Shown here: positions 52,706 to 61,887 of the stretch, one piece after another | Numbering within the stretch: the first letter of the stretch is position 1 | How the letters are laid out: each line of letters starts with the position of its first letter | DNA from: Candidatus Latescibacterota bacterium | Lineage (GTDB): Bacteria; Latescibacterota; UBA2968; UBA8231 | Assembly (NCBI GenBank): GCA_965248265.1 | Contig: CBDFJF010000001.1 | Span: 3,072,001 to 3,136,000 of the forward strand | Length of the DNA: 64,000 bases | Reading direction: 5' to 3' | Made by a program: the position numbers and the translations under genes | Notes under the pieces: model-generated | What the model saw: only the letters and a program-made list of their open reading frames with translations | Told to the model about the DNA's origin: nothing | Database searches by the model: none

Positions 52706-53485
52706 ATGGCCAACATCCTGGAAGAGATCGCCGCCTACAAGCGCGACTTCGTACGGCAGTGCAAATCACGCCGCTCCATGGCCGACATGCGTTCGGCCTC
52801 TGGCGATGCGCCTCCTCCGGAGGACTTCAGTGCCGCGCTGCAGGGGGACGGCATGGCCGTCATCGCCGAAATCAAGAAAGCCTCACCGTCCAAGGGCATA
52901 ATCCGGGAGGATTTCGACCCTGAGCGCATCGCCGCCAGCTACTCCGAGAACGGAGCCTCGGCGCTTTCCGTGCTCACGGACCAGGCGTATTTTCAGGGGC
53001 ACGATGACTATCTGATCAGCGCCCGCCGCATAGCCGAGTTACCGGTCCTGCGAAAGGACTTCACCATCGATCCATACCAGATCTACGAGGCGCGGGTGAT
53101 CGGGGCGGATGCGATCCTGTTGATCGTCGCCCTCATGGACGGGCAGCAGTTGGAGGACCTGATCGGTCTGAGCGGGGAGTTGGGGATGGCGGCGTTGGTC
53201 GAGGTGCACGATGACGGTGAACTGCAGCAAAGCCTGGCCAGTACGGCAGATCTGATCGGCATCAACAACCGGGATCTGCGCACGTTCGAGACCACATTGG
53301 AAACCACGTTCGCTTTGCGTCCGGCGATTCCGGATGGCGTTACGGTCGTGAGTGAGAGTGGTATCAACAGCAGCGATGATGTCGAGCGCCTGGCCGAGGT
53401 TGGTATCGACGCCGTCCTCGTCGGCGAAGCTATGATGCGCGAACCCGATCCAGGGGCCAAGCTGCGCGAATTGCTGGGAGCGTGA
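52706..53485 (+). CDS. trpC: Indole-3-glycerol-phosphate synthase
   Basis: IAEIKKASPSKG, LSVLTD, LRKDF, GINNRDL, SESG. Confidence 0.96.
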   Translation: MANILEEIAAYKRDFVRQCKSRRSMADMRSASGDAPPPEDFSAALQGDGMAVIAEIKKASPSKGIIREDFDPERIAASYSENGASALSVLTDQAYFQGHDDYLISARRIAELPVLRKDFTIDPYQIYEARVIGADAILLIVALMDGQQLEDLIGLSGELGMAALVEVHDDGELQQSLASTADLIGINNRDLRTFETTLETTFALRPAIPDGVTVVSESGINSSDDVERLAEVGIDAVLVGEAMMREPDPGAKLRELLGA

Positions 53486-53509
53486 AGTGAGAAGAAAGAA
53501 ATTGATTCA

Positions 53510-54493
53510 GTGAAAAAACGCGTGTTCTCCGGCATGCAACCCTCTGGGGAGCTGCATCTGGGCAACTACCTCGGCGCCCTGCGCAACTGGGTCGAAGAGC
53601 AGGAGGAGAACGAAAACATCTTCTGCGTCGTGGACCAGCATGCTATAACTGCAGACTACGATCCGGATCAGTTGCGTACCTCTGTGCGGCAACTCGTCGG
53701 TCTTTATCTGGCGGCCGGCCTGGACCCGGAAAAGACGACCTTGTTCGTGCAGTCGCATATGCCCGAGCACACTGAACTGGCCTGGCTGCTCAACTGCGTT
53801 ACGCCGATGGGTTGGCTTCAACGCATGACCCAGTTCAAGGACAAGTCCGAAGGTCAACGGGAGCGGGTCAGCACCGGACTGTTTACCTATCCGGTATTGA
53901 TGGCAGCGGATATCCTGCTGTACCAGGCGGACGGGGTGCCCGTGGGTGAGGACCAGAAGCAACACGTCGAGATTGCCCGAGATATCGCCCAACGATTCAA
54001 CAATCAATACGGCGACACCTTCACCGTGCCCGAGCCGATGATCAGGGGCATCGGTGCCCGAGTTATGGGGTTGGATGATCCCACCCGCAAGATGTCAAAG
54101 TCCGAGGAGGGCCGGTATCACAGTATTGGCTTGCTGGACGATCCCAAGGTCATCCGCAAGAAGTTCGGCCGCGCCGTCACCGACTCACAGAAGGAAATCT
54201 GTTTTGACCCTGCTCGGCCCGGGGTCCACAACCTGCTCACCATCTACCAGGCGTTAACTGGTGACGGGGCAGAAGCGATCGAGGCCCGTTTCGAGGGCAA
54301 GGGATACGGCGATCTGAAAGGGGCGCTCGCGGACCTCGTGATCGCAGACTTGGAGCCCCTGCAGGCACGCTACAATGAGATCGAAGCGGATCCCGGGTAC
54401 ATCGATCAGGTTCTCAGCGACGGCGCGGACAAGCTGAAACCCACGGTGACCGCCACCATGGACAAAGTCCGCCAGGTTATGGGCCTGCGTTAG
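53510..54493 (+). CDS. trpS: Tryptophan--tRNA ligase
   Basis: SGMQPSGELHLGNY, YPVLMAAD, VGEDQ, KMSKS. Confidence 0.96.
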   Translation: MKKRVFSGMQPSGELHLGNYLGALRNWVEEQEENENIFCVVDQHAITADYDPDQLRTSVRQLVGLYLAAGLDPEKTTLFVQSHMPEHTELAWLLNCVTPMGWLQRMTQFKDKSEGQRERVSTGLFTYPVLMAADILLYQADGVPVGEDQKQHVEIARDIAQRFNNQYGDTFTVPEPMIRGIGARVMGLDDPTRKMSKSEEGRYHSIGLLDDPKVIRKKFGRAVTDSQKEICFDPARPGVHNLLTIYQALTGDGAEAIEARFEGKGYGDLKGALADLVIADLEPLQARYNEIEADPGYIDQVLSDGADKLKPTVTATMDKVRQVMGLR

Positions 54494-54519
54494 GGCGGCA
54501 CTCCGAGGCGAAATAGCGA

Positions 54520-54792
54520 ATGGATATCAGTGACTGGCGCGCGCGCATCGACACCGTGGATCGCATTCTCGTAGACCTGATCAACCGACGCATGGAGTAC
54601 GCGTTGGAAATCGGCAAGATCAAAGGAGATCAAGGCCAACCGGTCAGAGACGCGGAGCGCGAACGCAGGGTATTGGCGACACTCAAACAGCACAACAAAG
54701 GCCCGGCCAGCGACGGGGCACTTGACGACATCTTTCAGCGTCTGATGGAAGAGGCGCGCCATCTCGAGGGCCCATCCACGGATGGAGAATGA
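54520..54792 (+). CDS. Chorismate mutase (AroQ/type II, monofunctional)
   Basis: R.RIDTVD..LV.LINRR..A.EIG.IK..VRD.ERE. Confidence 0.9.
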   Translation: MDISDWRARIDTVDRILVDLINRRMEYALEIGKIKGDQGQPVRDAERERRVLATLKQHNKGPASDGALDDIFQRLMEEARHLEGPSTDGE

Positions 54793-54819
54793 ACACCGCC
54801 GTGCACACTACCGAATAAC

Positions 54820-54851
54820 TGCGCGAATTGAAATGCGCGAATTGAAATGCG
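54820..54851 (+). repeat. 14-bp tandem duplication upstream of tyrA
   Basis: TGCGCGAATTGAAA twice, plus TGCG. Confidence 0.8.
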
Positions 54852-54869
54852 GTCAAACGCGGGAGCAGG

Positions 54870-55973
54870 GCGTTCTTTAATCGAGTAGCAGTCATAGGGG
54901 TCGGGCTGATCGGCGGGTCGCTCGGTTTGGCCTTGAAAAGAACCGGTTTCACTGGCCAGGTTGTTGGCGTAAGCCGGGCAGAGACCATCTCACAGGCACT
55001 CGATCTGGGTGTCATCGACGAGGGGTACTCCTATGAGGAGTTGCCGGCGGCGCTGTCCGGGGCCGACCTGGTATTTCTGTGCACGCCGATCGAACGCATT
55101 CTCGAGTTGTTGCCGCAGGTCATGTCGAACGTCATGCCGGGCACAGTGGTGACGGATGTCGGCAGCACCAAGCGGATGATCGTGGCGGAGGCAGCTCGTT
55201 GCAGTCGCGATGGGGTTCATTTCGTGGGCGGCCATCCCATGGCCGGTTCGGAGAAGGCAGGCGTGACGGCTGCTGACCCGTTCCTGTTCCAGAACGCAAT
55301 CTACATTCTGGTGCCCGATGAGGGGGAGGTGCCAGACGACAAGCACAATGCCCTGGTGGAGCTGGTGCGCACGCTGGGAGCCAAGGTCTTCCAGCTGTCG
55401 GTGGATGACCACGACGAAGTGGTCGCAGCGGTCTCGCACCTGCCTCAGATGATGGCGACGACCCTGGTGGAGATGGTTGGGGAGATGAACGAAGAGGGTG
55501 AGGGCCGGTTCCTGCCGCTTGCCGCGGGAGGGTTCAGGGACCTCACGCGCATAGCCTCGAGTCCGTTCTCGCCCGTATGGGCAGACATCTGTGCCACCAA
55601 TCGAGACCGGATTGTCGATACCATCGATCGCTACATCGACAAGCTGCGCTCGATTCGCGACAAGGTCGGCGACGCCGCTCTCGGAGATGATTTCGCGTAC
55701 GCGAACTCGGTGCGCGACCGGATTCCTCGCGATGCCAAGGGCTTTCTCCACACCTTGTTCGAGATTCTGGTAGTGGCGGAGGACAAACCCGGAGTGATCG
55801 CGGAGATCGCCTCGGTGTTGTCTGACGAAGGTGTCAACATAAACGACATCGAGGTAGTCAAAGTGCGTGAGGGCGAGGGTGGCACATTGCGGCTCGGCTT
55901 CGACAGTGACGAAGCGGCGAAGCAGGCCCTTGCATTGCTGCCGAAACTGGGATACCAGGCACGACGGCCCTGA
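54870..55973 (+). CDS. tyrA: Prephenate/arogenate dehydrogenase with C-terminal ACT domain (start codon unclear)
   Basis: FNRVAVIGVGLIGGS lies upstream of the ORF-track TTG 54927; TDVGSTK, GHPMAGSE, SHLP, RDLTRIA, ACT motif DKPGVIA. Confidence 0.9.
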   Translation, partial: AFFNRVAVIGVGLIGGSLGLALKRTGFTGQVVGVSRAETISQALDLGVIDEGYSYEELPAALSGADLVFLCTPIERILELLPQVMSNVMPGTVVTDVGSTKRMIVAEAARCSRDGVHFVGGHPMAGSEKAGVTAADPFLFQNAIYILVPDEGEVPDDKHNALVELVRTLGAKVFQLSVDDHDEVVAAVSHLPQMMATTLVEMVGEMNEEGEGRFLPLAAGGFRDLTRIASSPFSPVWADICATNRDRIVDTIDRYIDKLRSIRDKVGDAALGDDFAYANSVRDRIPRDAKGFLHTLFEILVVAEDKPGVIAEIASVLSDEGVNINDIEVVKVREGEGGTLRLGFDSDEAAKQALALLPKLGYQARRP

Positions 55974-56038
55974 ACGGGAAGCCATGGCAGCGATCAAATG
56001 GCAGTGATGAATGAGATGGCAATAACCGGGTTATCGAG

Positions 56039-57325
56039 ATGGAACAGACGCTGACGCCAGCGCGAAAGCTTTCGGGCGAGATCACGGTACCCGGAGAATT
56101 CGACATGGCCGCGGAAGCCCTCGTCCTGGCGAGTCTTTCTCCCGAGGAGAGCCGTATCGCCAATGTGCCCGTGTCCATCGATCCCGTCGTCGATGTCGTG
56201 CGTCGGCTCGGTGCACAAATCGAGAGCACTGATTCGTCTCTACAAGTAAAAGGGACCGGGTTGGGCCAGTGGTCAGCGCCGTTGGCAACCGTTGATTTGA
56301 GCGCCTGTGGTGAGGCCGCACTGCCCCTGATGGCAGTGCTGGCAGGCCACGCCTTTGTCGCCAGCGCAAGGGTCGATTCGGACAGCGTTGAGTTGGCACG
56401 CCGACTGCTAGAGCTGCTGTCCCCCATGGGGGTGACCGCATCGGAGGAATCAGAGGGGGTGTTTCGGTTCGATGGTGATCGACCCTTGCGAGGTGCCGAG
56501 TACGAGAATGAGGAAATTCCCCGGATCGTCAAACTCTCGCTCCTGATCGCGGCGATGTCGGCTGAGGGCAGGACTATTGTACGAGAACCTGTCTCTTCTC
56601 GAGACAAGGCGGATCACTTGTTGAGGGCTCGCGGTGTCGACATCCAGGGCACAAGGGGTGTCGATCGCTCGGAGCGTTGCCTGGGATTGGAGGGCGGGCA
56701 GTCAATTGGTGCCGCGCAACTGGAGGTGTCTGGCCAGCTCAACCTGGCCATGCCGATTCTGACCGCGGCTACGGCGCTGAGAGGATCCAAGGTCACGATC
56801 AAGAATGTGGACCTGCGCACCGGTAAACGGCTCTTTCTCGATCTGGCGCGACAGATCGGTGCCGACGTCGAAGTCCAGGATGAGGGTTCTGTCTGCGACC
56901 TGTTGGTGAAGGGTGGGGGGACGATCAAGGCAACGCGGGTAGCCGAAAAGCGGGCGGAGCACCTGTTGGACCATGTGGCATTGCTGGCCGTGCTGGCGAC
57001 GCAAACGGAGGGAGCCTTCGTTATCCGTGATGTCTCAACCCTGCGTCGTGTCCATGGGTTCGACTACATGGCTCACCTGGTTGCTGCCCTTCGAAGCATG
57101 GGCGCCAAGGTCGGCGAGTACCCCGAGGGCATCGTGGTAGAGGGAGGGCACGTTCTTAAGGGGGTGGCCCTGGACAGCAACGGCGATCCCGGTTTCGTCC
57201 AGGCCTTTTCGGTAGCCGCCCTGCTGGCACAAGGTGAGACCGTCATTCACGGGACGGAGTGCCTGGATGGTGTTTTTCCTGGTTTTTTCGACACGCTGAA
57301 TTCTCTGAAGGGAGGAAAGCGATGA
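56039..57325 (+). CDS. EPSP-synthase (AroA)-fold protein with degenerate active site
   Basis: Collinear with class II AroA over 428 aa (LSGEITVPG, EP..SRD, LAVLATQTEG..VI.D, FPGFF), but the KS/HR, GNSGT, RP, SAQ, KE..R and DHR motifs are replaced. Confidence 0.8.
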   Translation: MEQTLTPARKLSGEITVPGEFDMAAEALVLASLSPEESRIANVPVSIDPVVDVVRRLGAQIESTDSSLQVKGTGLGQWSAPLATVDLSACGEAALPLMAVLAGHAFVASARVDSDSVELARRLLELLSPMGVTASEESEGVFRFDGDRPLRGAEYENEEIPRIVKLSLLIAAMSAEGRTIVREPVSSRDKADHLLRARGVDIQGTRGVDRSERCLGLEGGQSIGAAQLEVSGQLNLAMPILTAATALRGSKVTIKNVDLRTGKRLFLDLARQIGADVEVQDEGSVCDLLVKGGGTIKATRVAEKRAEHLLDHVALLAVLATQTEGAFVIRDVSTLRRVHGFDYMAHLVAALRSMGAKVGEYPEGIVVEGGHVLKGVALDSNGDPGFVQAFSVAALLAQGETVIHGTECLDGVFPGFFDTLNSLKGGKR

Positions 57326-57462
57326 GGTCCTTATTTCGCTTGTTCGCACTGATGGCCATCGTCTTCGCGGGAGGGGTCATTCTGATCAAGCTGCTGTACA
57401 GCGTCTCCTGGGGAGAGAGTCTGGAGATCGCCGATCAATTCGCCGAAGACCTGCTGGCTTGA
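57322..57462 (+). CDS. Small membrane protein (46 aa)
   Basis: GGAGG SD; ATGA overlap with the aroA-like stop and TTGA overlap with the aroE start; one TM plus an acidic amphipathic tail. Confidence 0.72.
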   Translation: MRSLFRLFALMAIVFAGGVILIKLLYSVSWGESLEIADQFAEDLLA

Positions 57463-58301
57463 TCAGCGGAGAAACCAAGGTTCTCGGGGTGATCGGAGAT
57501 CCCGTCGGACATAGCTCGTCGCCGGCAATGCACAACGCCGCCATTCACGCGCTCGGCCTGGACTACGTGTACGTGGCTTTTCACGTACCGGCGGGACATG
57601 TGGCCGAAGTCGGCCGTGCTATGCGCGCCTTGCAGATAACGGGTCTCAACGTGACGGTTCCACACAAGGAAACCATCATGGCCGAGTTGGATGAAATTGC
57701 CGATGAGGCCACCGCGATCGGTGCCGTCAATACCATTCAGAACGATCAGGGTCGCCTCACCGGCCACAACACCGACGCTCACGGCATCATCACGTCTCTG
57801 GCCGTCGATGGTGGTCTCGAGCGGTTGCCGTCGCAAGTCGTCCTGCTGGGTGCTGGGGGCGCTGCAAGGGCCATCCTCTACGCGCTGCTGCACCGGGATG
57901 AAGTTGAAAGTATCTCGCTTCTGAACCGCACGGTGACCCGTGCCGAGCAGCTCGCCGCCCAACTGGATCCCCAAGCGGACAAAGTAACTGTGGGTACCCT
58001 GGCTGAATGCGGCTGTGTGCGTGAGGCCGGCCTGCTGATCAACGCTACTTCCATCGGTATGCAACCGGACGCGGCGCATTCGCCTGTGGCGGATCCCGGC
58101 TGCCTGCATGGAGACCTCGTCGTCCTCGACATCGTTTACCGGCCCCTGAGCACGTTGTTGTTGCAGCAGGCGAAGGAGGCGGGTGCGCGCACGGTAGACG
58201 GCCTGGGAATGCTGGTACACCAGGGGGCTCGGGCGTTTGAATTGTGGACGGGCCAGCAGGCTCCCGTTGACGTGATGAGACAGGCCATCACGCCCAACTG
58301 A
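57459..58301 (+). CDS. aroE: Shikimate dehydrogenase
   Basis: GDPVGHSSSP, NVTVPHK, GAVNT, NTD, GAGGAA, NRT, GLGML..Q. Confidence 0.95.
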   Translation: MISGETKVLGVIGDPVGHSSSPAMHNAAIHALGLDYVYVAFHVPAGHVAEVGRAMRALQITGLNVTVPHKETIMAELDEIADEATAIGAVNTIQNDQGRLTGHNTDAHGIITSLAVDGGLERLPSQVVLLGAGGAARAILYALLHRDEVESISLLNRTVTRAEQLAAQLDPQADKVTVGTLAECGCVREAGLLINATSIGMQPDAAHSPVADPGCLHGDLVVLDIVYRPLSTLLLQQAKEAGARTVDGLGMLVHQGARAFELWTGQQAPVDVMRQAITPN

Positions 58302-60028
58302 TGAACCCTTTCGTCGAAGAAATCGTCCAGAGAGCGGTCTCTGCCACGGGGCTGTCGGAAGACGCCGTACGGATCCTGGTCGCGGTGCCGCCGGACGAGA
58401 GTCTTGGGGACTACGCCATTCCCTGTTTCACCCTGGCAAAAGAGCGCAAACAGAATCCGGTGGCCATAGCTGGAGACATCGCTCGTATGATCAGCGATGG
58501 CATCGACGCGGATGGCAACGAACCAAGTCACATCGCCCGGGTTCAGGCGGCCGGGCCGTACGTGAATTTCACCCTCGACCGCGTGCGCTTCATCGCCCAT
58601 GTGCTGGATGAAATTTCCGACCAGGGTGTGAAGTACGGTTCACGCAACCAAGGGCAAGGCAAGACCCTCGCCATCGATTTTTCGTCACCGAATCTGGCGC
58701 GACCTTTCAGCATCGCGCATCTGAGATCGACGGCCATCGGCAACGCCATCTATCGCCTGCATCAGTTCGCCGGGTGGCGTTGTGTCGGCATCAATCATCT
58801 GGGTGACTATGGCGCCAACTTCGGACAATTGCTGGCAGCCTATCGCTTGTGGGCGGACGAAGACGCGGTGCGGGCGAACCCGATCCCTGAGCTGCTGGCC
58901 CTCTACGTTCGCTTCAACGAAGAGGCGAAGGACAATCCCGACCTGACCGAACAGGCCCGATCCTGCCTGCGTGCCCTGGCTGAAGGGGACGAAGAGATGG
59001 TCGGGCTGTGGCGCTATTTCATCGAGGAGGGTACCAAGGAAGCCGAGCGCATCTACGGCATCCTGGATGTTCACTTCGACGAAGTTCTCGGAGAGAGTTT
59101 CTTCGCCGACAAGCTGGACGACGTAGTGGCGCTGTTCCAGGACGCGGGCCTGGCGGAAGAAAGTGAGGGTGCCCTCATCGTACGCCTCGATAACGATGAG
59201 GACATGGCTCCCTGCATGTTGCGCACGAGCAACAACACCAGCACCTACCACAGTCGCGATATCGCCGCCTTGCTGTACCGGCACGAGCAGTACGACTTCG
59301 ACAAGATGGTCTACGTCACTGACATGCGTCAGAGCTTGCATTTTCGCCAGTTGTTCAAGGCGGTCAAGCTGCTTGGGTTGGAGTGGTCCTCGCAGTGCGT
59401 GCACGCACCGTTCGGAATGATGAGCTTCAAGGGAGCGGCGATAGCGACCCGCAAAGGCAATATCGTTTTCCTGGAAGAGGTGCTGGATAGGGCGGTGCAG
59501 CTGACTGCCGACATCATCGCCGAGAAGAATCCGGATCTCGAAGATCGCGACCAGATCGCCAACCAGGTAGGCATCAGCGCCGTCATCTTCACCGACGTCA
59601 ACAACCGCCGCACGCGAGACATATCTTTTGATCTGGACGAGGTTCTCAACTTCGATGGCGAAACCGGTCCCTACGTGCAATACACCCATGCCCGGTTCTG
59701 CAGCATTCTGCGCAAGCATGGCGCACCTGTTGCCGCTGATGCTGACTTGTCCTGTTTGGGCGAGATCGCAGAAATGAGGGTGGCGAGACAACTGTCTGAG
59801 TTTCCGGACTCGGTTGAACGGGCCTGCGAGGAGAATGAACCCTCCTACATCGCCGCGTACCTGATCGACCTGGCGACCGTGGCCAACCGTTTCTACAACG
59901 AGTTGCCTGTTCTGGTGGCGGCTGACGATCAGCTGACAGCTGCCCGTGTCCGGCTCGTGGACTGCGTCGGCCAGGTCCTGCGCAGCGGCCTGTCCCTTCT
60001 GGGTATGAAGGCTCCCAAACAGATGTAG
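58301..60028 (+). CDS. argS: Arginine--tRNA ligase
   Basis: GDY, GPYVNF, DFSSPNLARPFSIAHLRS, NHLGD, GPYVQYTHAR, C-terminal Met. Confidence 0.95.
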   Translation: MNPFVEEIVQRAVSATGLSEDAVRILVAVPPDESLGDYAIPCFTLAKERKQNPVAIAGDIARMISDGIDADGNEPSHIARVQAAGPYVNFTLDRVRFIAHVLDEISDQGVKYGSRNQGQGKTLAIDFSSPNLARPFSIAHLRSTAIGNAIYRLHQFAGWRCVGINHLGDYGANFGQLLAAYRLWADEDAVRANPIPELLALYVRFNEEAKDNPDLTEQARSCLRALAEGDEEMVGLWRYFIEEGTKEAERIYGILDVHFDEVLGESFFADKLDDVVALFQDAGLAEESEGALIVRLDNDEDMAPCMLRTSNNTSTYHSRDIAALLYRHEQYDFDKMVYVTDMRQSLHFRQLFKAVKLLGLEWSSQCVHAPFGMMSFKGAAIATRKGNIVFLEEVLDRAVQLTADIIAEKNPDLEDRDQIANQVGISAVIFTDVNNRRTRDISFDLDEVLNFDGETGPYVQYTHARFCSILRKHGAPVAADADLSCLGEIAEMRVARQLSEFPDSVERACEENEPSYIAAYLIDLATVANRFYNELPVLVAADDQLTAARVRLVDCVGQVLRSGLSLLGMKAPKQM

Positions 60029-60031
60029 CCG

Positions 60032-60056
60032 AGGGCTCCCAAACACCGGGAGCCTT
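60032..60056. other. Hairpin after argS containing a duplicate of the argS 3' end
   Basis: AGGGCTCCC-AAACACC-GGGAGCCTT; GGCTCCCAAACA also occurs at 60010-60021. No U tract on the plus strand. Confidence 0.5.
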
Positions 60057-60074
60057 AAAGAAGAATCGAGGACC

Positions 60075-60266
60075 ATGGACAAGAAAGAGTTGGTGTGTGA
60101 TACCTGCGGCAAGGTGGCCGAGTTTCTTCGGCGCGATGTCGTCGATGGCGGATACAATGCGATGATGAAAACACCGCTGTGGAACTGTGAGGATTGCTAC
60201 CAGATCAAGCGGGCCAGCAGGACAACGGCATCCGGTTCGGACGCGGCGACACCGCCACAGACATGA
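60075..60266 (+). CDS. Small CxxC...CxxC putative zinc-binding protein (63 aa)
   Basis: CDTC...CEDC, GAGG SD, ATGA overlap with aroK. Confidence 0.72.
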   Translation: MDKKELVCDTCGKVAEFLRRDVVDGGYNAMMKTPLWNCEDCYQIKRASRTTASGSDAATPPQT

Positions 60267-60799
60267 GAGGCCCGGTATTCCTCACCGGGTTCATGGCCAC
60301 CGGTAAGACCAAGATCGGACGCCTCCTGGCGGGACTTCTGGGGTGGTCATTCATGGACACGGATGCTATGGTCATCGAGCGAGCCGGCAAGAGCATTTCC
60401 GAGATCTTCTCCGCTGACGGCGAAGCCGCTTTTCGAGCCCTCGAACACGCCAGCGTGCTGGAGGCCTGCGGAGTCCCGCATTCAGTGGTCGCGCTGGGTG
60501 GCGGTGCGATCATGGAGGAAGGCAACCGCAAGGCGATCGTTGCTTCCGGCGGCACCCTGGTCTGTCTGCAAGCGGATGTCGACACCATCGTCGAGCGTAT
60601 ATCCCGCAAAGACAACCGGCCGTTGCTGGCTGGCTTGAGCCGCGCACAGAAACGCGCGAAGATCGAGCTCATGCTGGCAGAGCGGGCACCTCACTACGCG
60701 GCGGCTGACGTCACCTTCCGATCCTCGGAGAATCGCGACGCCACCGTGGCGGCGCGTCGACTGCTGGCGCAACTGGAGAGTCATGAATGCACCGCGTAG
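60263..60799 (+). CDS. aroK: Shikimate kinase
   Basis: GFMATGKT, DTD, GEAAFR, GGG, RPLL. Confidence 0.95.
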   Translation: MRGPVFLTGFMATGKTKIGRLLAGLLGWSFMDTDAMVIERAGKSISEIFSADGEAAFRALEHASVLEACGVPHSVVALGGGAIMEEGNRKAIVASGGTLVCLQADVDTIVERISRKDNRPLLAGLSRAQKRAKIELMLAERAPHYAAADVTFRSSENRDATVAARRLLAQLESHECTA

Positions 60800-61887
60800 A
60801 GGTTGAGGTCGCTGCCTGCCCGTACACCGTCCTGGTCGGGCACGACACTATCTCCGAACTCGGTAGCCATTGCCGTGCGCTTGAATTGGGATCGCGAGTC
60901 GCCGTGATCGTGGATCGAGCGTTGCAGGCGAGTTTTGCCCCGAAGGCCATCAACAGTCTCCGGGACCATGGTTTCGATCCGCTCGAGATCGAGTTTGCGG
61001 GCAGCGACGCCGCCAAGAACCTGACTACCGCAGAAGAAATCTTTGGACGCATGATCGAAGCAGAGTTGGATCGCGGCTCGTGGGTGCTGGCCCTGGGCGG
61101 AGGGGTTGTCGGTGATATGGGGGGGTTCGTCGCGGCCACCTACCTGCGCGGCGTCGACTGCGTGCAGGTTCCGACCACGGTTGTGGCGCAGGTAGATGCC
61201 AGCCTCGGTGGTAAGACGGGAGTCAATCACCGTCTGGGCAAGAATACGATCGGCGCCTTCCATCAGCCGCGACTCGTGTTCACGGACACGGCCAGCCTGC
61301 GCAGTCTGCCAAAACGCGAACGAGTCGCCGGCATGGCCGAGATGATCAAGCACGGTATCATTCGTGACGAGGAATTGTTTGCGTTTCTGGAACAGCACCT
61401 GGAGGCGGTCGTCGACATGTCCATCGACGCGGAGCGCCTGGATTGGTTGATTGCCCGCAATGTCGCACTAAAGGCGGGGGTCGTAGCCAGTGACGAGCGA
61501 GAGAGTGGCTTGCGTGCTATTCTCAACTACGGCCACACCATCGGGCACGCGATCGAAGCGGCGACCGAGTACCGTCAGTACAACCATGGAGAGGCTGTCA
61601 TCCTGGGCATGGCGGCCGCGGGGGAGATTGCTTGTCGAATGGGTTTATGGCCGCAGACACAACGGCAGCGCCAGGACGATTTGCTGGAAAGGCTGGGCGT
61701 ACCCGAAGGCATCGGTGGAGTCGATGCCGCGCGTATCGTCGAGCGTACGCACGCAGACAAGAAACGGATCAACGGCAAGATCCGCATGGTCCTCGCCCGC
61801 CAGGTTGGCCAAGCCGAACTCTTCGACGACATCGATGAAGCCACCATCCGTGCCGGTGTCGAGCATATCCAGGGTAAATACCGATGA
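60787..61887 (+). CDS. aroB: 3-dehydroquinate synthase
   Basis: LGGGVVGD, RG..QVPTT..QVDAS.GGKTG, LNYGHT.GHA.E, HGEAV. Confidence 0.96.
   Translation: MHRVEVEVAACPYTVLVGHDTISELGSHCRALELGSRVAVIVDRALQASFAPKAINSLRDHGFDPLEIEFAGSDAAKNLTTAEEIFGRMIEAELDRGSWVLALGGGVVGDMGGFVAATYLRGVDCVQVPTTVVAQVDASLGGKTGVNHRLGKNTIGAFHQPRLVFTDTASLRSLPKRERVAGMAEMIKHGIIRDEELFAFLEQHLEAVVDMSIDAERLDWLIARNVALKAGVVASDERESGLRAILNYGHTIGHAIEAATEYRQYNHGEAVILGMAAAGEIACRMGLWPQTQRQRQDDLLERLGVPEGIGGVDAARIVERTHADKKRINGKIRMVLARQVGQAELFDDIDEATIRAGVEHIQGKYR

What the first reader, a model, noticed from the sequence alone, without database searches (positions are those of the whole stretch)
56039..57325. EPSP-synthase pseudoenzyme occupying the aroA slot of the operon
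Seen: an intact 428-aa ORF collinear with class II AroA, directly after tyrA as in the usual tyrA-aroA order. Motifs are systematically replaced: PGDKSISHR to PGEFDMAAE, GNSGT to SACGE, the RPM Arg lost, SAQVKS to PRIVKL, RDHTE to RDKAD, GDISS to GQLNL, LRVKESDR to LRRVHGFDY, GDHR to GDPG. Only the Asp of IDE (LDH) seems kept. Known: these motifs carry the S3P/PEP-binding and catalytic residues (E. coli K22, R27, G96, R124, Q171, K340, E341, R344, H385, R386). Inference: the fold is under selection but EPSPS chemistry is lost, so it may be a scaffold, ligand sensor or neofunctionalised enzyme. The real step must be done by another aroA or a non-homologous enzyme. It also lacks MurA motifs.
Basis: partly seen in the sequence, partly recalled or inferred. 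Interest (0 to 1): 0.85.

Follow-up and report, generated by a model that had tools for sequence, protein, structure and literature searches.

The report
Dead EPSP synthase kept in operon
This gene is an old copy of the shikimate-pathway enzyme EPSP synthase that lost every catalytic residue long ago, yet a whole class of uncultured Latescibacterota keeps it under selection while a second, intact aroA elsewhere very probably does the chemistry.

Summary
ORF 56039-57325 (428 aa) is a full-length, confidently folding EPSP-synthase homologue (PF00275; AlphaFold pLDDT 93.5). It keeps only 2 of 11 substrate or catalytic residues and scores far below the aroA equivalog cut-off.

It is not decay:
- Orthologues sit in the same tyrA-X-aroE slot in 65 of 66 genomes of the family.
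- dN/dS is 0.11-0.22, close to that of the flanking enzymes.
- The former active-site positions are now among the least conserved.

The genome holds an intact aroA on its other contig, plus murA.

In other classes of the phylum the same slot holds a canonical class II aroA and there is no extra copy. So X is the displaced native enzyme, retained as a pseudoenzyme.

In sister lineages, domain 2 was cut out at least twice. This leaves a 217-227 aa one-domain protein, so the retained role lies mainly in domain 1.

A conserved 46-aa membrane-protein gene overlaps the X stop and the aroE start.

My best reading, which is inferred and not shown, is a non-catalytic structural partner of its co-translated neighbours. 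No published description was found.

The parts
56039..57325 (+). X: catalytically dead class II EPSP-synthase homologue (pseudo-AroA), 428 aa, stop TGA at 57323-57325
56039..56098 (+). X residues 1-20: N-terminal strands that belong to EPSPS domain 1; kept in the one-domain 'mini' forms of sister lineages
56099..56719 (+). X residues 21-227: EPSPS domain 2, under weaker constraint (dN/dS 0.14-0.375) and deleted in sister lineages
56720..57322 (+). X residues 228-428: main part of EPSPS domain 1, the best conserved part (dN/dS 0.04-0.18 together with residues 1-20); holds 10 of the 13 invariant family positions
57322..57462 (+). Conserved 46-aa small ORF (hydrophobic N-terminal helix plus SWxES(L/F)xIADQFxxDLL tail). 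Its ATG overlaps the X stop (ATGA) and its TGA overlaps the aroE TTG start (TTGA)
54846..55973 (+). tyrA (prephenate dehydrogenase plus ACT domain). The frame is open from 54846; the first ATG/GTG/TTG is at 54927, downstream of the Rossmann GVGLIGGS motif
57459..58301 (+). aroE (shikimate dehydrogenase)
54520..54792 (+). Chorismate mutase type II (90 aa) upstream of tyrA

Best explanation
X is the native operon copy of a class II EPSP synthase. Its catalytic job very probably passed to a second, unlinked aroA, and X has since been kept as a pseudoenzyme. Shown here: it folds as a two-domain EPSPS, it lacks the S3P/PEP-binding and catalytic residues, its old cleft drifts freely, and it is under purifying selection across a whole class of Latescibacterota. 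Selection is strongest on domain 1 (the N-terminal strands plus the C-terminal half). Domain 2 is dispensable, because sister lineages removed it. Inferred, not shown: X works without chemistry, as a structural partner or subunit of proteins made from the same coupled message. The candidates are the 46-aa membrane protein whose start codon overlaps the X stop, and TyrA, which is encoded just upstream and is fused to AroA in other phyla. This would continue a non-catalytic association that the ancestral enzyme already had. My confidence in each step: not an EPSP synthase and not decaying, about 0.9; role carried mainly by domain 1, about 0.75; partner of the small membrane protein and/or TyrA, about 0.4.
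For: Fold kept: PF00275 matches end to end. AlphaFold2 gives pLDDT 93.5 and pTM 0.89. All top Foldseek PDB hits are EPSPS, then MurA.

Chemistry lost: 2 of 11 key residues remain. The 23 best-scoring representative clusters have 0-4 of 11, while nearly all full-length rows after them have 11 of 11. TIGR01356 scores 162.7 against a cut-off of 287.25. Mean entropy at 19 former ligand sites is 2.26 bits against 1.53 elsewhere, and 16 of 19 lie above the median. In canonical AroA the figures are 0.20 against 1.67, with 0 of 19 above the median.

Selection: dN/dS is 0.11-0.22 for X, against 0.05-0.13 for tyrA, 0.04-0.21 for aroE and 0.05-0.21 for argS. Domain 1 gives 0.04-0.18 and domain 2 gives 0.14-0.375; domain 2 was the higher in 7 of 7 pairs.

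Conservation and synteny: tyrA-X-aroE is collinear in 19 of 19 loci. X is present in 65 of 66 family genomes.

Displacement: the genome's own intact aroA lies elsewhere. In other classes of the phylum the same slot holds a canonical class II AroA with 10-11 of 11 residues and 31-34% identity to X. In four of those genomes only two PF00275 genes were found, so there is no extra aroA.

Single origin: X, the mini forms and a full-length pseudo form make one clade with support 1.0, beside the canonical class II sequences.

Domain 2 dispensable: 217-227 aa one-domain forms occupy the same slot. They fold confidently, pLDDT 88.4, and arose at least twice.

Coupling: the X end lies within 5 nt of the small-ORF start in 44 of 52 parsed loci, and overlaps it in 26. 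An EPSPS-like gene sits directly upstream of the small ORF in 76 of 76 loci. The small ORF has dN/dS 0.02-0.29.

TyrA link: tyrA-aroA adjacency and fusions are widespread (paper PMC1173090, passages read; Verrucomicrobiota fusions; NF011381). The EPSPS N-terminus belongs to domain 1, so a fused TyrA sits next to the domain that is retained here (inference).
Against: No result here shows that X binds anything.

The conserved domain-1 motifs (GE.VIRD..LR, AKVGE.P.G, R..LD.LRR) are also present in the phylum's canonical operon AroAs. They may therefore be fold determinants rather than an interface.

X evolves faster than its neighbours: 26-59% identity where TyrA shows 53-73% and AroE 48-79%.

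tyrA and X are not always tightly spaced. The gap is 5 nt or less in only 10 of 40 loci and reaches 1525 nt. A 320-aa ORF is inserted between them in L027.

No TyrA-X or other fused form of the pseudo-protein was found among longer proteins. The tool itself calls this weak evidence.

One family genome, G022 (86% complete), showed no X. One locus, L161, may be frameshifted.
Confidence: 0.55

Rival explanations
1. Ligand sensor or regulator. X lost catalysis but binds a pathway metabolite at a new or remodelled site and modulates neighbouring enzymes allosterically.
For: Purifying selection on a folded protein. It sits inside an aromatic amino-acid supraoperon. Domain 1 has conserved polar residues: R264, D268, R271, K297, T299, R300, R305, R330, D331 and E360.
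Against: The inter-domain cleft, the natural pocket of this fold, is hypervariable and was destroyed by the domain-2 deletions. Cationic ligand residues were replaced by acidic or hydrophobic ones that are not conserved. Most of the conserved polar residues in domain 1 are shared with the canonical enzymes of the phylum. TyrA already carries its own ACT regulatory domain.
Confidence: 0.15
2. Neofunctionalised enzyme. X catalyses a different reaction with new residues.
For: The full two-domain fold is retained in families f1 and f4 and part of f2. dN/dS is low.
Against: No conserved polar constellation exists in domain 2 or at the cleft. The residues at former ligand sites differ between genera. 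Domain 2 was lost at least twice while the gene stayed under selection. No MurA-type Cys and no MurA score.
Confidence: 0.05
3. The ORF is kept only as a translational-coupling spacer. Ribosomes must read from tyrA through X to reach the overlapping start of the 46-aa ORF and then aroE, so only an open frame is selected, not the protein.
For: ATGA and TTGA overlaps at both ends of the small ORF. The X-to-small-ORF spacing is 5 nt or less in 44 of 52 loci. In-frame internal deletions were tolerated.
Against: An open frame alone predicts dN/dS near 1. The observed values are 0.11-0.22 overall and 0.04-0.18 in domain 1, like the neighbouring enzymes. There are 13 invariant and about 55 nearly invariant residues in 72 sequences. 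The models fold with high confidence. Complete deletion has not occurred in any of the 76 loci that carry the small ORF.
Confidence: 0.07
4. A 'prozyme'-type partner of the real AroA. The dead paralogue binds and activates or regulates the active EPSP synthase.
For: This is a common theme for pseudoenzymes (recalled, not tested here). Both proteins are present in nearly all genomes of the class.
Against: Within the one family that keeps X, the active AroA belongs to three lineages. They are 57-67%, 33-36% and about 27-28% identical to the window genome's own AroA. So X did not co-evolve with one catalytic partner. The genes are unlinked. EPSPS enzymes are, to my recollection, generally monomeric.
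Confidence: 0.05
5. A slowly decaying relic with no function.
For: Catalytic residues are gone. X diverges faster than its neighbours. One possibly frameshifted copy exists, L161.
Against: The frames are intact in 65 of 66 family genomes and across four families. dN/dS is 0.11-0.22. The loss of catalysis predates the split of these families.
Confidence: 0.03

Closest known systems
Class II EPSP synthase (AroA), e.g. Bacillus halodurans 3RMT, Coxiella burnetii 3TR1/3ROI, Agrobacterium CP4 2GG4
   Same: Same two-domain fold, same length and collinear sequence. These are the best sequence and structure matches. The operon position after tyrA is the same. The closest relatives are the canonical operon AroAs of other Latescibacterota classes, at 31-34% identity.
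   Different: X keeps 2 of 11 substrate or catalytic residues. It scores below the aroA equivalog cut-off. Its cleft positions are hypervariable. A separate intact aroA very probably does the step.
Truncated AroF (EPSPS) domain of the TyrA-AroF fusion in Pseudomonas syringae (Song, Bonner, Xie, Jensen et al., BMC Biol 2005, PMC1173090; passages read)
   Same: An EPSPS next to or fused to TyrA lost catalysis through a deletion of about 200 residues, together with acquisition of a stand-alone, probably laterally transferred aroA. The authors suggested the remnant might serve as a new regulatory domain. This parallels the one-domain mini forms found here.
   Different: That case is a recent event in one species, inside a fusion protein, and was reported as an observation only. 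The paper calls the deletion N-terminal in one place and C-terminal in another, and I could not check the sequence here. The present family is free-standing and old (class level), mostly full length, shown here to be under purifying selection, and linked to a small membrane-protein gene.
HisZ, the inactive histidyl-tRNA-synthetase paralogue that is a subunit of ATP phosphoribosyltransferase (recalled from memory; not searched or tested here)
   Same: A bacterial amino-acid-pathway protein derived from an enzyme, without that enzyme's activity, and kept as a non-catalytic subunit of a pathway enzyme. This is what I propose X works like.
   Different: Different fold and pathway. HisZ's partner and role are experimentally known, whereas for X they are inferred.
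MurA (UDP-GlcNAc enolpyruvyl transferase), the other member of the enolpyruvyl-transferase fold
   Same: PF00275 fold.
   Different: X scores 79 bits against a cut-off of 392.7 on TIGR01072. The genome has its own MurA, which scores 439.5 bits.

Membership tests
EPSP synthase / AroA (EC 2.5.1.19; NCBIfam TIGR01356 equivalog) | Two-domain enolpyruvyl-transferase fold (PF00275) over the full length | tested here: met
   PF00275 161.6 bits, 7-420 on 3-417/417. AF2 pLDDT 93.5. Foldseek top hits are all EPSPS.
EPSP synthase / AroA (EC 2.5.1.19; NCBIfam TIGR01356 equivalog) | Score at or above the curated equivalog cut-off | tested here: not met
   162.7 bits against 287.25. The genome's own AroA scores 372.8 and the in-phylum operon AroA scores 415.9.
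   2 of 11 are kept (G96, D313). The family has 0-4 of 11 and canonical sequences have 11 of 11.
EPSP synthase / AroA (EC 2.5.1.19; NCBIfam TIGR01356 equivalog) | EPSP synthase activity or aroA complementation | not testable with these tools
   Needs an enzyme assay or complementation.
MurA (TIGR01072) | Equivalog score | tested here: not met
   79 bits against 392.7. The Cys115-type catalytic loop was not examined at the MurA Cys115 position; no MurA-like loop is evident in the translation.
Bifunctional TyrA-AroA (NF011381) | Prephenate dehydrogenase and EPSPS in one polypeptide | tested here: not met
   X is a separate ORF, 65 nt after the tyrA stop. It scores 162.5 bits against 902. No longer fused relative was found, which is weak evidence.
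Pseudoenzyme (general class) | Clear homology to an enzyme family with loss of the residues needed for its reaction | tested here: met
Pseudoenzyme (general class) | Maintained by purifying selection, as opposed to a pseudogene | tested here: met
   dN/dS 0.11-0.22. Present in 65 of 66 family genomes. 13 invariant residues in 72 sequences.
Pseudoenzyme (general class) | A demonstrated non-catalytic function | not testable with these tools
   The complex prediction gave no verdict; see Tried and rejected.

The most novel reading that the evidence does not exclude
X, and its one-domain derivative, is an obligate non-catalytic subunit that docks on the cytosolic tail of the co-translated 46-aa membrane protein. 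Through this it anchors or organises TyrA and/or AroE at the membrane. On this reading the Latescibacterota operon AroA always had a second, structural role in a membrane-tethered aromatic-pathway assembly, and that role outlived its enzymatic one when catalysis moved to a xenologous aroA.
Probability: 0.2. Interest if true: 0.8.

Novelty: new variant of a known kind. Interest (0 to 1): 0.62.

Why it matters
1. Annotation. JGI pipelines name these proteins '3-phosphoshikimate 1-carboxyvinyltransferase', while NCBI calls them hypothetical. Metabolic reconstructions and glyphosate-sensitivity classifications of EPSPS sequences could therefore count a dead protein as the enzyme.

2. Evolution. 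This is a clean natural series in a core biosynthetic operon: active enzyme, then full-length pseudoenzyme, then a single-domain protein. Sister classes still hold the active ancestor in the same slot, and the active gene was replaced by at least three different aroA lineages.

3. Biology. Strong selection on a catalytically empty EPSPS domain 1 implies a non-catalytic role of this ancient enzyme that has not been described. The tight coupling to a conserved 46-aa membrane protein gives a concrete partner to test.

4. The parallel with the truncated TyrA-AroF of P. syringae suggests that such retention after displacement may recur.

Tried and rejected
- Complex prediction, TyrA (375 aa, alignment A3) with X (alignment A1): 'no answer', score 0.00. 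This is no evidence either way.
- The look-up of sequencing runs, kind rna: no RNA holder listed; four runs of one sample hold the DNA. Expression is therefore untested.
- Rfam at E up to 0.1 on 53400-61000: no match.
- Promoter and terminator scan on 54400-58400: no promoter-like site, and terminator-like sites were not above the shuffles.
- The search for homologous proteins with lengths 'longer': no fused relative at E up to 1e-30; the tool itself calls this weak.
- I tried to reach the P. syringae TyrA-AroF remnant by scanning genome contigs with a fused TyrA-AroA representative (P0295). It proved to be from Verrucomicrobiota, so the P. syringae domain boundaries were not checked.
- Literature. 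The searches were 'EPSP synthase' + pseudoenzyme (0 papers); EPSP synthase + 'catalytically inactive' + paralog (1 irrelevant); 'enolpyruvyl transferase' + non-catalytic + homolog (4 irrelevant); Latescibacteria + shikimate (2 irrelevant); P. syringae + tyrA + truncated + EPSP (nothing relevant among the 10 of 78 papers listed). The EPSPS classification preprint (passages read) mentions many 'unclassified' EPSPS sequences but no non-functional ones.
- The 46-aa ORF at 55867-56007 was considered and rejected as a gene. It overlaps the tyrA 3' end out of frame, has no Pfam hit, and its weak similarity in close relatives is what the overlapping tyrA coding sequence would give.
- In the domain-wise dN/dS script the eighth pair failed on a codon containing N and was not rerun.
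- In one search the pairs L056/L057 and L033/L034 give nearly the same values as L020/L021 and appear to be the same pair of genomes, so they are not counted as independent.
Full report
**1. What is there.**
ORF 56039-57325 (+) encodes 428 aa with no internal stop. Pfam EPSP_synthase (PF00275) matches from end to end at 161.6 bits. The aroA equivalog TIGR01356 gives only 162.7 bits against its cut-off of 287.25, and murA TIGR01072 gives 79 against 392.7. The best solved relatives are class II EPSP synthases: 3RMT at E 7e-39, then 1RF4, Coxiella 3TR1 and CP4.

I took E. coli aroA from NC_000913 as a ruler. On that numbering X keeps 2 of 11 substrate or catalytic positions, G96 and D313. AlphaFold2 with a 72-sequence family alignment gives pLDDT 93.5 and pTM 0.89, with the expected beta-alpha-beta-alpha-beta-beta units. 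The top Foldseek hits in the PDB are all EPSPS, followed by MurA. Contigs of four runs from one sample, possibly the source, match 54700-57500 without a single difference.

**2. Context.**
The window carries an aromatic supraoperon, all on the + strand. The genes in order are:
- trpE, trpG, trpD, trpC
- trpS
- chorismate mutase (54520-54792)
- tyrA with an ACT domain
- X
- aroE
- argS
- aroK
- aroB (60787-61887)

The genome (7.32 Mb, 2 contigs) has three PF00275 genes:
- X.
- A MurA on contig 1, scoring 439.5 bits on TIGR01072.
- A 460-aa AroA on contig 2. It passes the aroA equivalog at 372.8 bits and has 11 of 11 key residues. It is only 24% identical to X.

Record titles of related contigs name Candidatus Latescibacterota. 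Some MAGs are labelled Gemmatimonadetes.

**3. A conserved family, not a decaying copy.**
A search of 5.8 billion proteins gave 68 clusters (P0002-P0069) at 38-94% identity, ahead of a sharp drop to canonical AroAs at 34% or less.
- All 64 full-length members begin the motif with VPGE or a variant instead of PGDKSISHR, and all lack K22, R124, H385 and R386. Only 6 of 64 keep Arg at R27 and 7 of 64 at R344. All 40 class II AroAs aligned with them keep every one of these.
- In an all-against-all HMMER search of 1.84 billion cluster representatives, the 23 best rows, query included, have 0-4 of 11 key residues. Nearly every full-length row after them has 11 of 11.
- In whole genomes X is present in 23 of 24, and in a wider sample 65 of 66, genomes of the same GTDB family. 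The one miss is 86% complete.
- It always lies in the order tyrA-X-aroE, in 19 of 19 loci.
- dN/dS (NG86) for X is 0.11-0.22 in eight independent close pairs. In the same pairs tyrA gives 0.05-0.13, aroE 0.04-0.21 and argS 0.05-0.21.
- The former ligand-contact sites went from the most conserved positions to among the least conserved. In canonical AroA their mean entropy is 0.20 bits against 1.67 elsewhere. In X it is 2.26 against 1.53, with 16 of 19 sites above the median.

So the fold is selected and the old active site is not. No new conserved chemistry replaced it.

**4. Where it came from.**
In other classes of the same phylum (families f5, f6, f9, f12, f13) the gene in the same position is a canonical class II AroA.
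- It sits next to aroE, and after tyrA where the contig reaches that far.
- It has 10-11 of 11 key residues and is 31-34% identical to X.
- One of them scores 415.9 bits on TIGR01356.
- Four such genomes have only two PF00275 genes each, the operon AroA and a second that I take to be MurA but did not classify, so there is no extra aroA.

In the class that holds the window (families f1-f4), every slot gene examined is degenerate, with 0-4 of 11 residues. A canonical AroA is found elsewhere in 38 of 41 genomes when the window genome's own AroA is the query. Two more genomes have a third AroA type with 10 of 11 residues. One genome, 90% complete, showed none.

Within family f1 alone the active AroA belongs to three lineages: 57-67%, 33-36% and about 27-28% identical to the window genome's own AroA.

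A FastTree of the domain-1 columns (124 sequences, 233 columns, midpoint root) puts all degenerate forms in one clade with support 1.0, beside the 40 canonical class II sequences.

Where the slot gene is canonical it diverges at the pace of its neighbours: 58-64% identity against TyrA 59% and AroE 58-72%. Where it is degenerate it runs ahead: 26-59% against TyrA 53-73% and AroE 48-79%.

My reading is that the native operon aroA lost catalysis once, in the ancestor of this class, after a second aroA was available. It has been kept since under reduced but real constraint.

**5. One-domain derivatives.**
In genus g19 of family f2 and in family f3, the slot holds a 217-227 aa protein. It consists of the N-terminal strands joined directly to the C-terminal half. 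This is EPSPS domain 1, with domain 2 (X residues about 21-227) cleanly removed.
- About 25 clusters of this form exist, some on megabase contigs.
- It folds confidently as one compact domain, pLDDT 88.4 and pTM 0.87.
- A full-length degenerate form (G040, family f4) branches between the two mini groups, with supports 0.93 and 0.81. Other genera of f2 are also full length. So the deletion happened at least twice.
- A still shorter, possibly frameshifted copy was seen once, in L161.
- Both deletion junctions lie between the two similar '(V)PGD' motifs of the ancestral sequence, as read from the alignment. Recombination between these motifs is my inference.

In X itself domain 1 is more constrained than domain 2: dN/dS 0.04-0.18 against 0.14-0.375, with domain 2 higher in 7 of 7 pairs. 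Of the 13 invariant family positions, 10 lie in residues 228-428. The retained role therefore resides mainly in domain 1.

**6. The small ORF.**
The distance from the X stop to the aroE start is exactly 133 nt in 14 of 20 family loci. This stretch is a 46-aa ORF, window 57322-57462.
- Its ATG overlaps the X stop (ATGA) and its TGA overlaps the TTG start of aroE (TTGA).
- It has a hydrophobic N-terminal segment (Kyte-Doolittle 19-residue mean up to 2.58) and a tail SWxES(L/F)xIADQFxxDLL.
- Seven positions are invariant in 30 sequences.
- dN/dS is 0.02-0.29 in 8 pairs.
- No Pfam family matches it.
- A pattern scan of one genome per species found it in 76 loci. Nearly all are titled Latescibacterota or Latescibacteria, or carry Gemmatimonad-type MAG labels. 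A few are titled only 'uncultured bacterium' or 'bacterium', and one Candidatus Handelsmanbacteria.
- In 76 of 76 loci an EPSPS-like gene lies directly upstream: 54 full-length degenerate, 20 short forms and 2 canonical. aroE lies downstream in 75 of 76.
- A variant also follows the canonical AroA of family f5.
- In the 52 loci my script could parse, the EPSPS-like gene ends within 5 nt of the small-ORF start in 44, and overlaps it in 26. For tyrA to X the gap is 5 nt or less in 10 of 40.

So the tightest and oldest linkage of this gene, whether active or dead, is to the small membrane protein.

**7. How it most likely works.**
Shown here:
- X is not an EPSP synthase by every sequence criterion.
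- It is under selection.
- The selection is concentrated on domain 1.
- It is co-translated with its neighbours.

Inferred: X acts without chemistry, as a structural partner of proteins made from the same message. I consider two candidates.
- The 46-aa membrane protein. Its start overlaps the X stop, and the pairing is universal and ancestral.
- TyrA. It is adjacent upstream, and TyrA-AroA adjacency and fusions are widespread: Song et al. 2005, passages read; Verrucomicrobiota fusions; NF011381. The EPSPS N-terminus is part of domain 1.

The conserved domain-1 motifs are shared with the phylum's canonical operon AroAs. This fits retention of an old non-catalytic association better than invention of a new one. 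It equally allows that these motifs are only fold determinants.

Arguments against the rivals:
- A pure translational-coupling spacer predicts neutral protein evolution, which is not seen.
- A regulator of the active AroA is unlikely, because that partner was swapped between three lineages.
- A new enzyme or a cleft sensor conflicts with the variable cleft and the deletions of domain 2.

**8. Comparison with what is known.**
The closest family is class II EPSP synthase. X shares its fold and descent but fails its defining residues and the equivalog score, so I do not file it as an AroA.

The closest published case I found is the truncated AroF domain of the P. syringae TyrA-AroF fusion. That loss was coupled to acquisition of a foreign aroA, and the authors speculated on a regulatory reuse (PMC1173090). 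I could not check that sequence.

In function X would resemble non-catalytic enzyme paralogues such as HisZ (recalled, not tested here).

My literature searches found no description of an EPSPS pseudoenzyme family. Supplements were closed.

**9. Verdict.**
The finding is real, and I extend it in four ways:
- It is an old, class-wide pseudo-EPSPS derived in situ from the operon enzyme.
- The active gene was displaced.
- The protein was repeatedly reduced to one domain.
- It is coupled to a conserved micro-protein gene.

The mechanism remains inferred. The finding is a new variant of a known kind (a pseudoenzyme of a known family) and is of moderate to high interest.

Noticed in passing
window 57322-57462 (+): A conserved 46-aa ORF lies between X and aroE. 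It has a hydrophobic N-terminal helix and an SWxES(L/F)xIADQFxxDLL tail. Its start overlaps the X stop (ATGA) and its stop overlaps the aroE start (TTGA). It was found in 76 loci, most titled Latescibacterota, always directly after the EPSPS-like gene, with dN/dS 0.02-0.29 and no Pfam family.
   Followed up: yes
window 54822-54930 (tyrA 5' end): The Rossmann motif GVGLIGGS of TyrA lies upstream of the first ATG/GTG/TTG (54927). The frame is open only from 54846, after a TGA at 54843, and holds no canonical start before the motif. A 14-nt tandem duplication (gcgcgaattgaaat x2) lies just upstream. Short-read contigs agree with the sequence. An unusual start codon or some other initiation mechanism is implied.
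   Followed up: partly
window 55867-56007 (+): A 46-aa ORF overlapping the last 107 nt of tyrA in another frame. It has no Pfam hit, and its similarity in relatives is explained by the overlapping tyrA coding sequence. It is most likely not a gene.
   Followed up: yes
G000 contig 2: 3948377-3949756 (-) = L001; L036, L048, L049 in relatives: Within the one family, the active aroA belongs to three lineages that are at most about 37% identical to each other, and it sits in different places. This implies repeated replacement, probably by lateral transfer.
   Followed up: partly
L161:2380-3010: In one family-f4-like genome the slot gene is shorter still (about 165-174 aa). A remnant of the N-terminal strand lies in another frame. 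This may be a third reduction, a frameshift or an assembly error.
   Followed up: no
L027:3069-4031: In one family-f3 genome a 320-aa ORF is inserted between tyrA and the mini form. By eye it looks like a phosphotransferase or kinase, but this was not tested. The mini form stays directly before the small ORF.
   Followed up: no
proteins P0258, P0260, P0270, P0324, P0327, P0329, P0334, P0381: Other EPSPS-like cluster representatives outside this family have only 2-7 of the 11 key residues. Further degenerate AroA paralogues may therefore exist in other lineages.
   Followed up: no
proteins P0053, P0054, P0056: Some family members carry N-terminal extensions made of short Thr/Pro/Glu-rich repeats (MPVTNEMPVTETT...), or the upstream start may be miscalled.
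   Followed up: no
names: JGI names both the full-length and the mini degenerate proteins '3-phosphoshikimate 1-carboxyvinyltransferase'. NCBI names them 'hypothetical protein'.
   Followed up: no
g14 genomes; L110-L135: One large genus has a shorter X, with an open frame of 404-415 aa. In alignment it lacks the K340/E341 region (shown as '--'). Several rows show one stop 'inside' the match, probably because the alignment reads past the gene's end. This was not examined.
   Followed up: no
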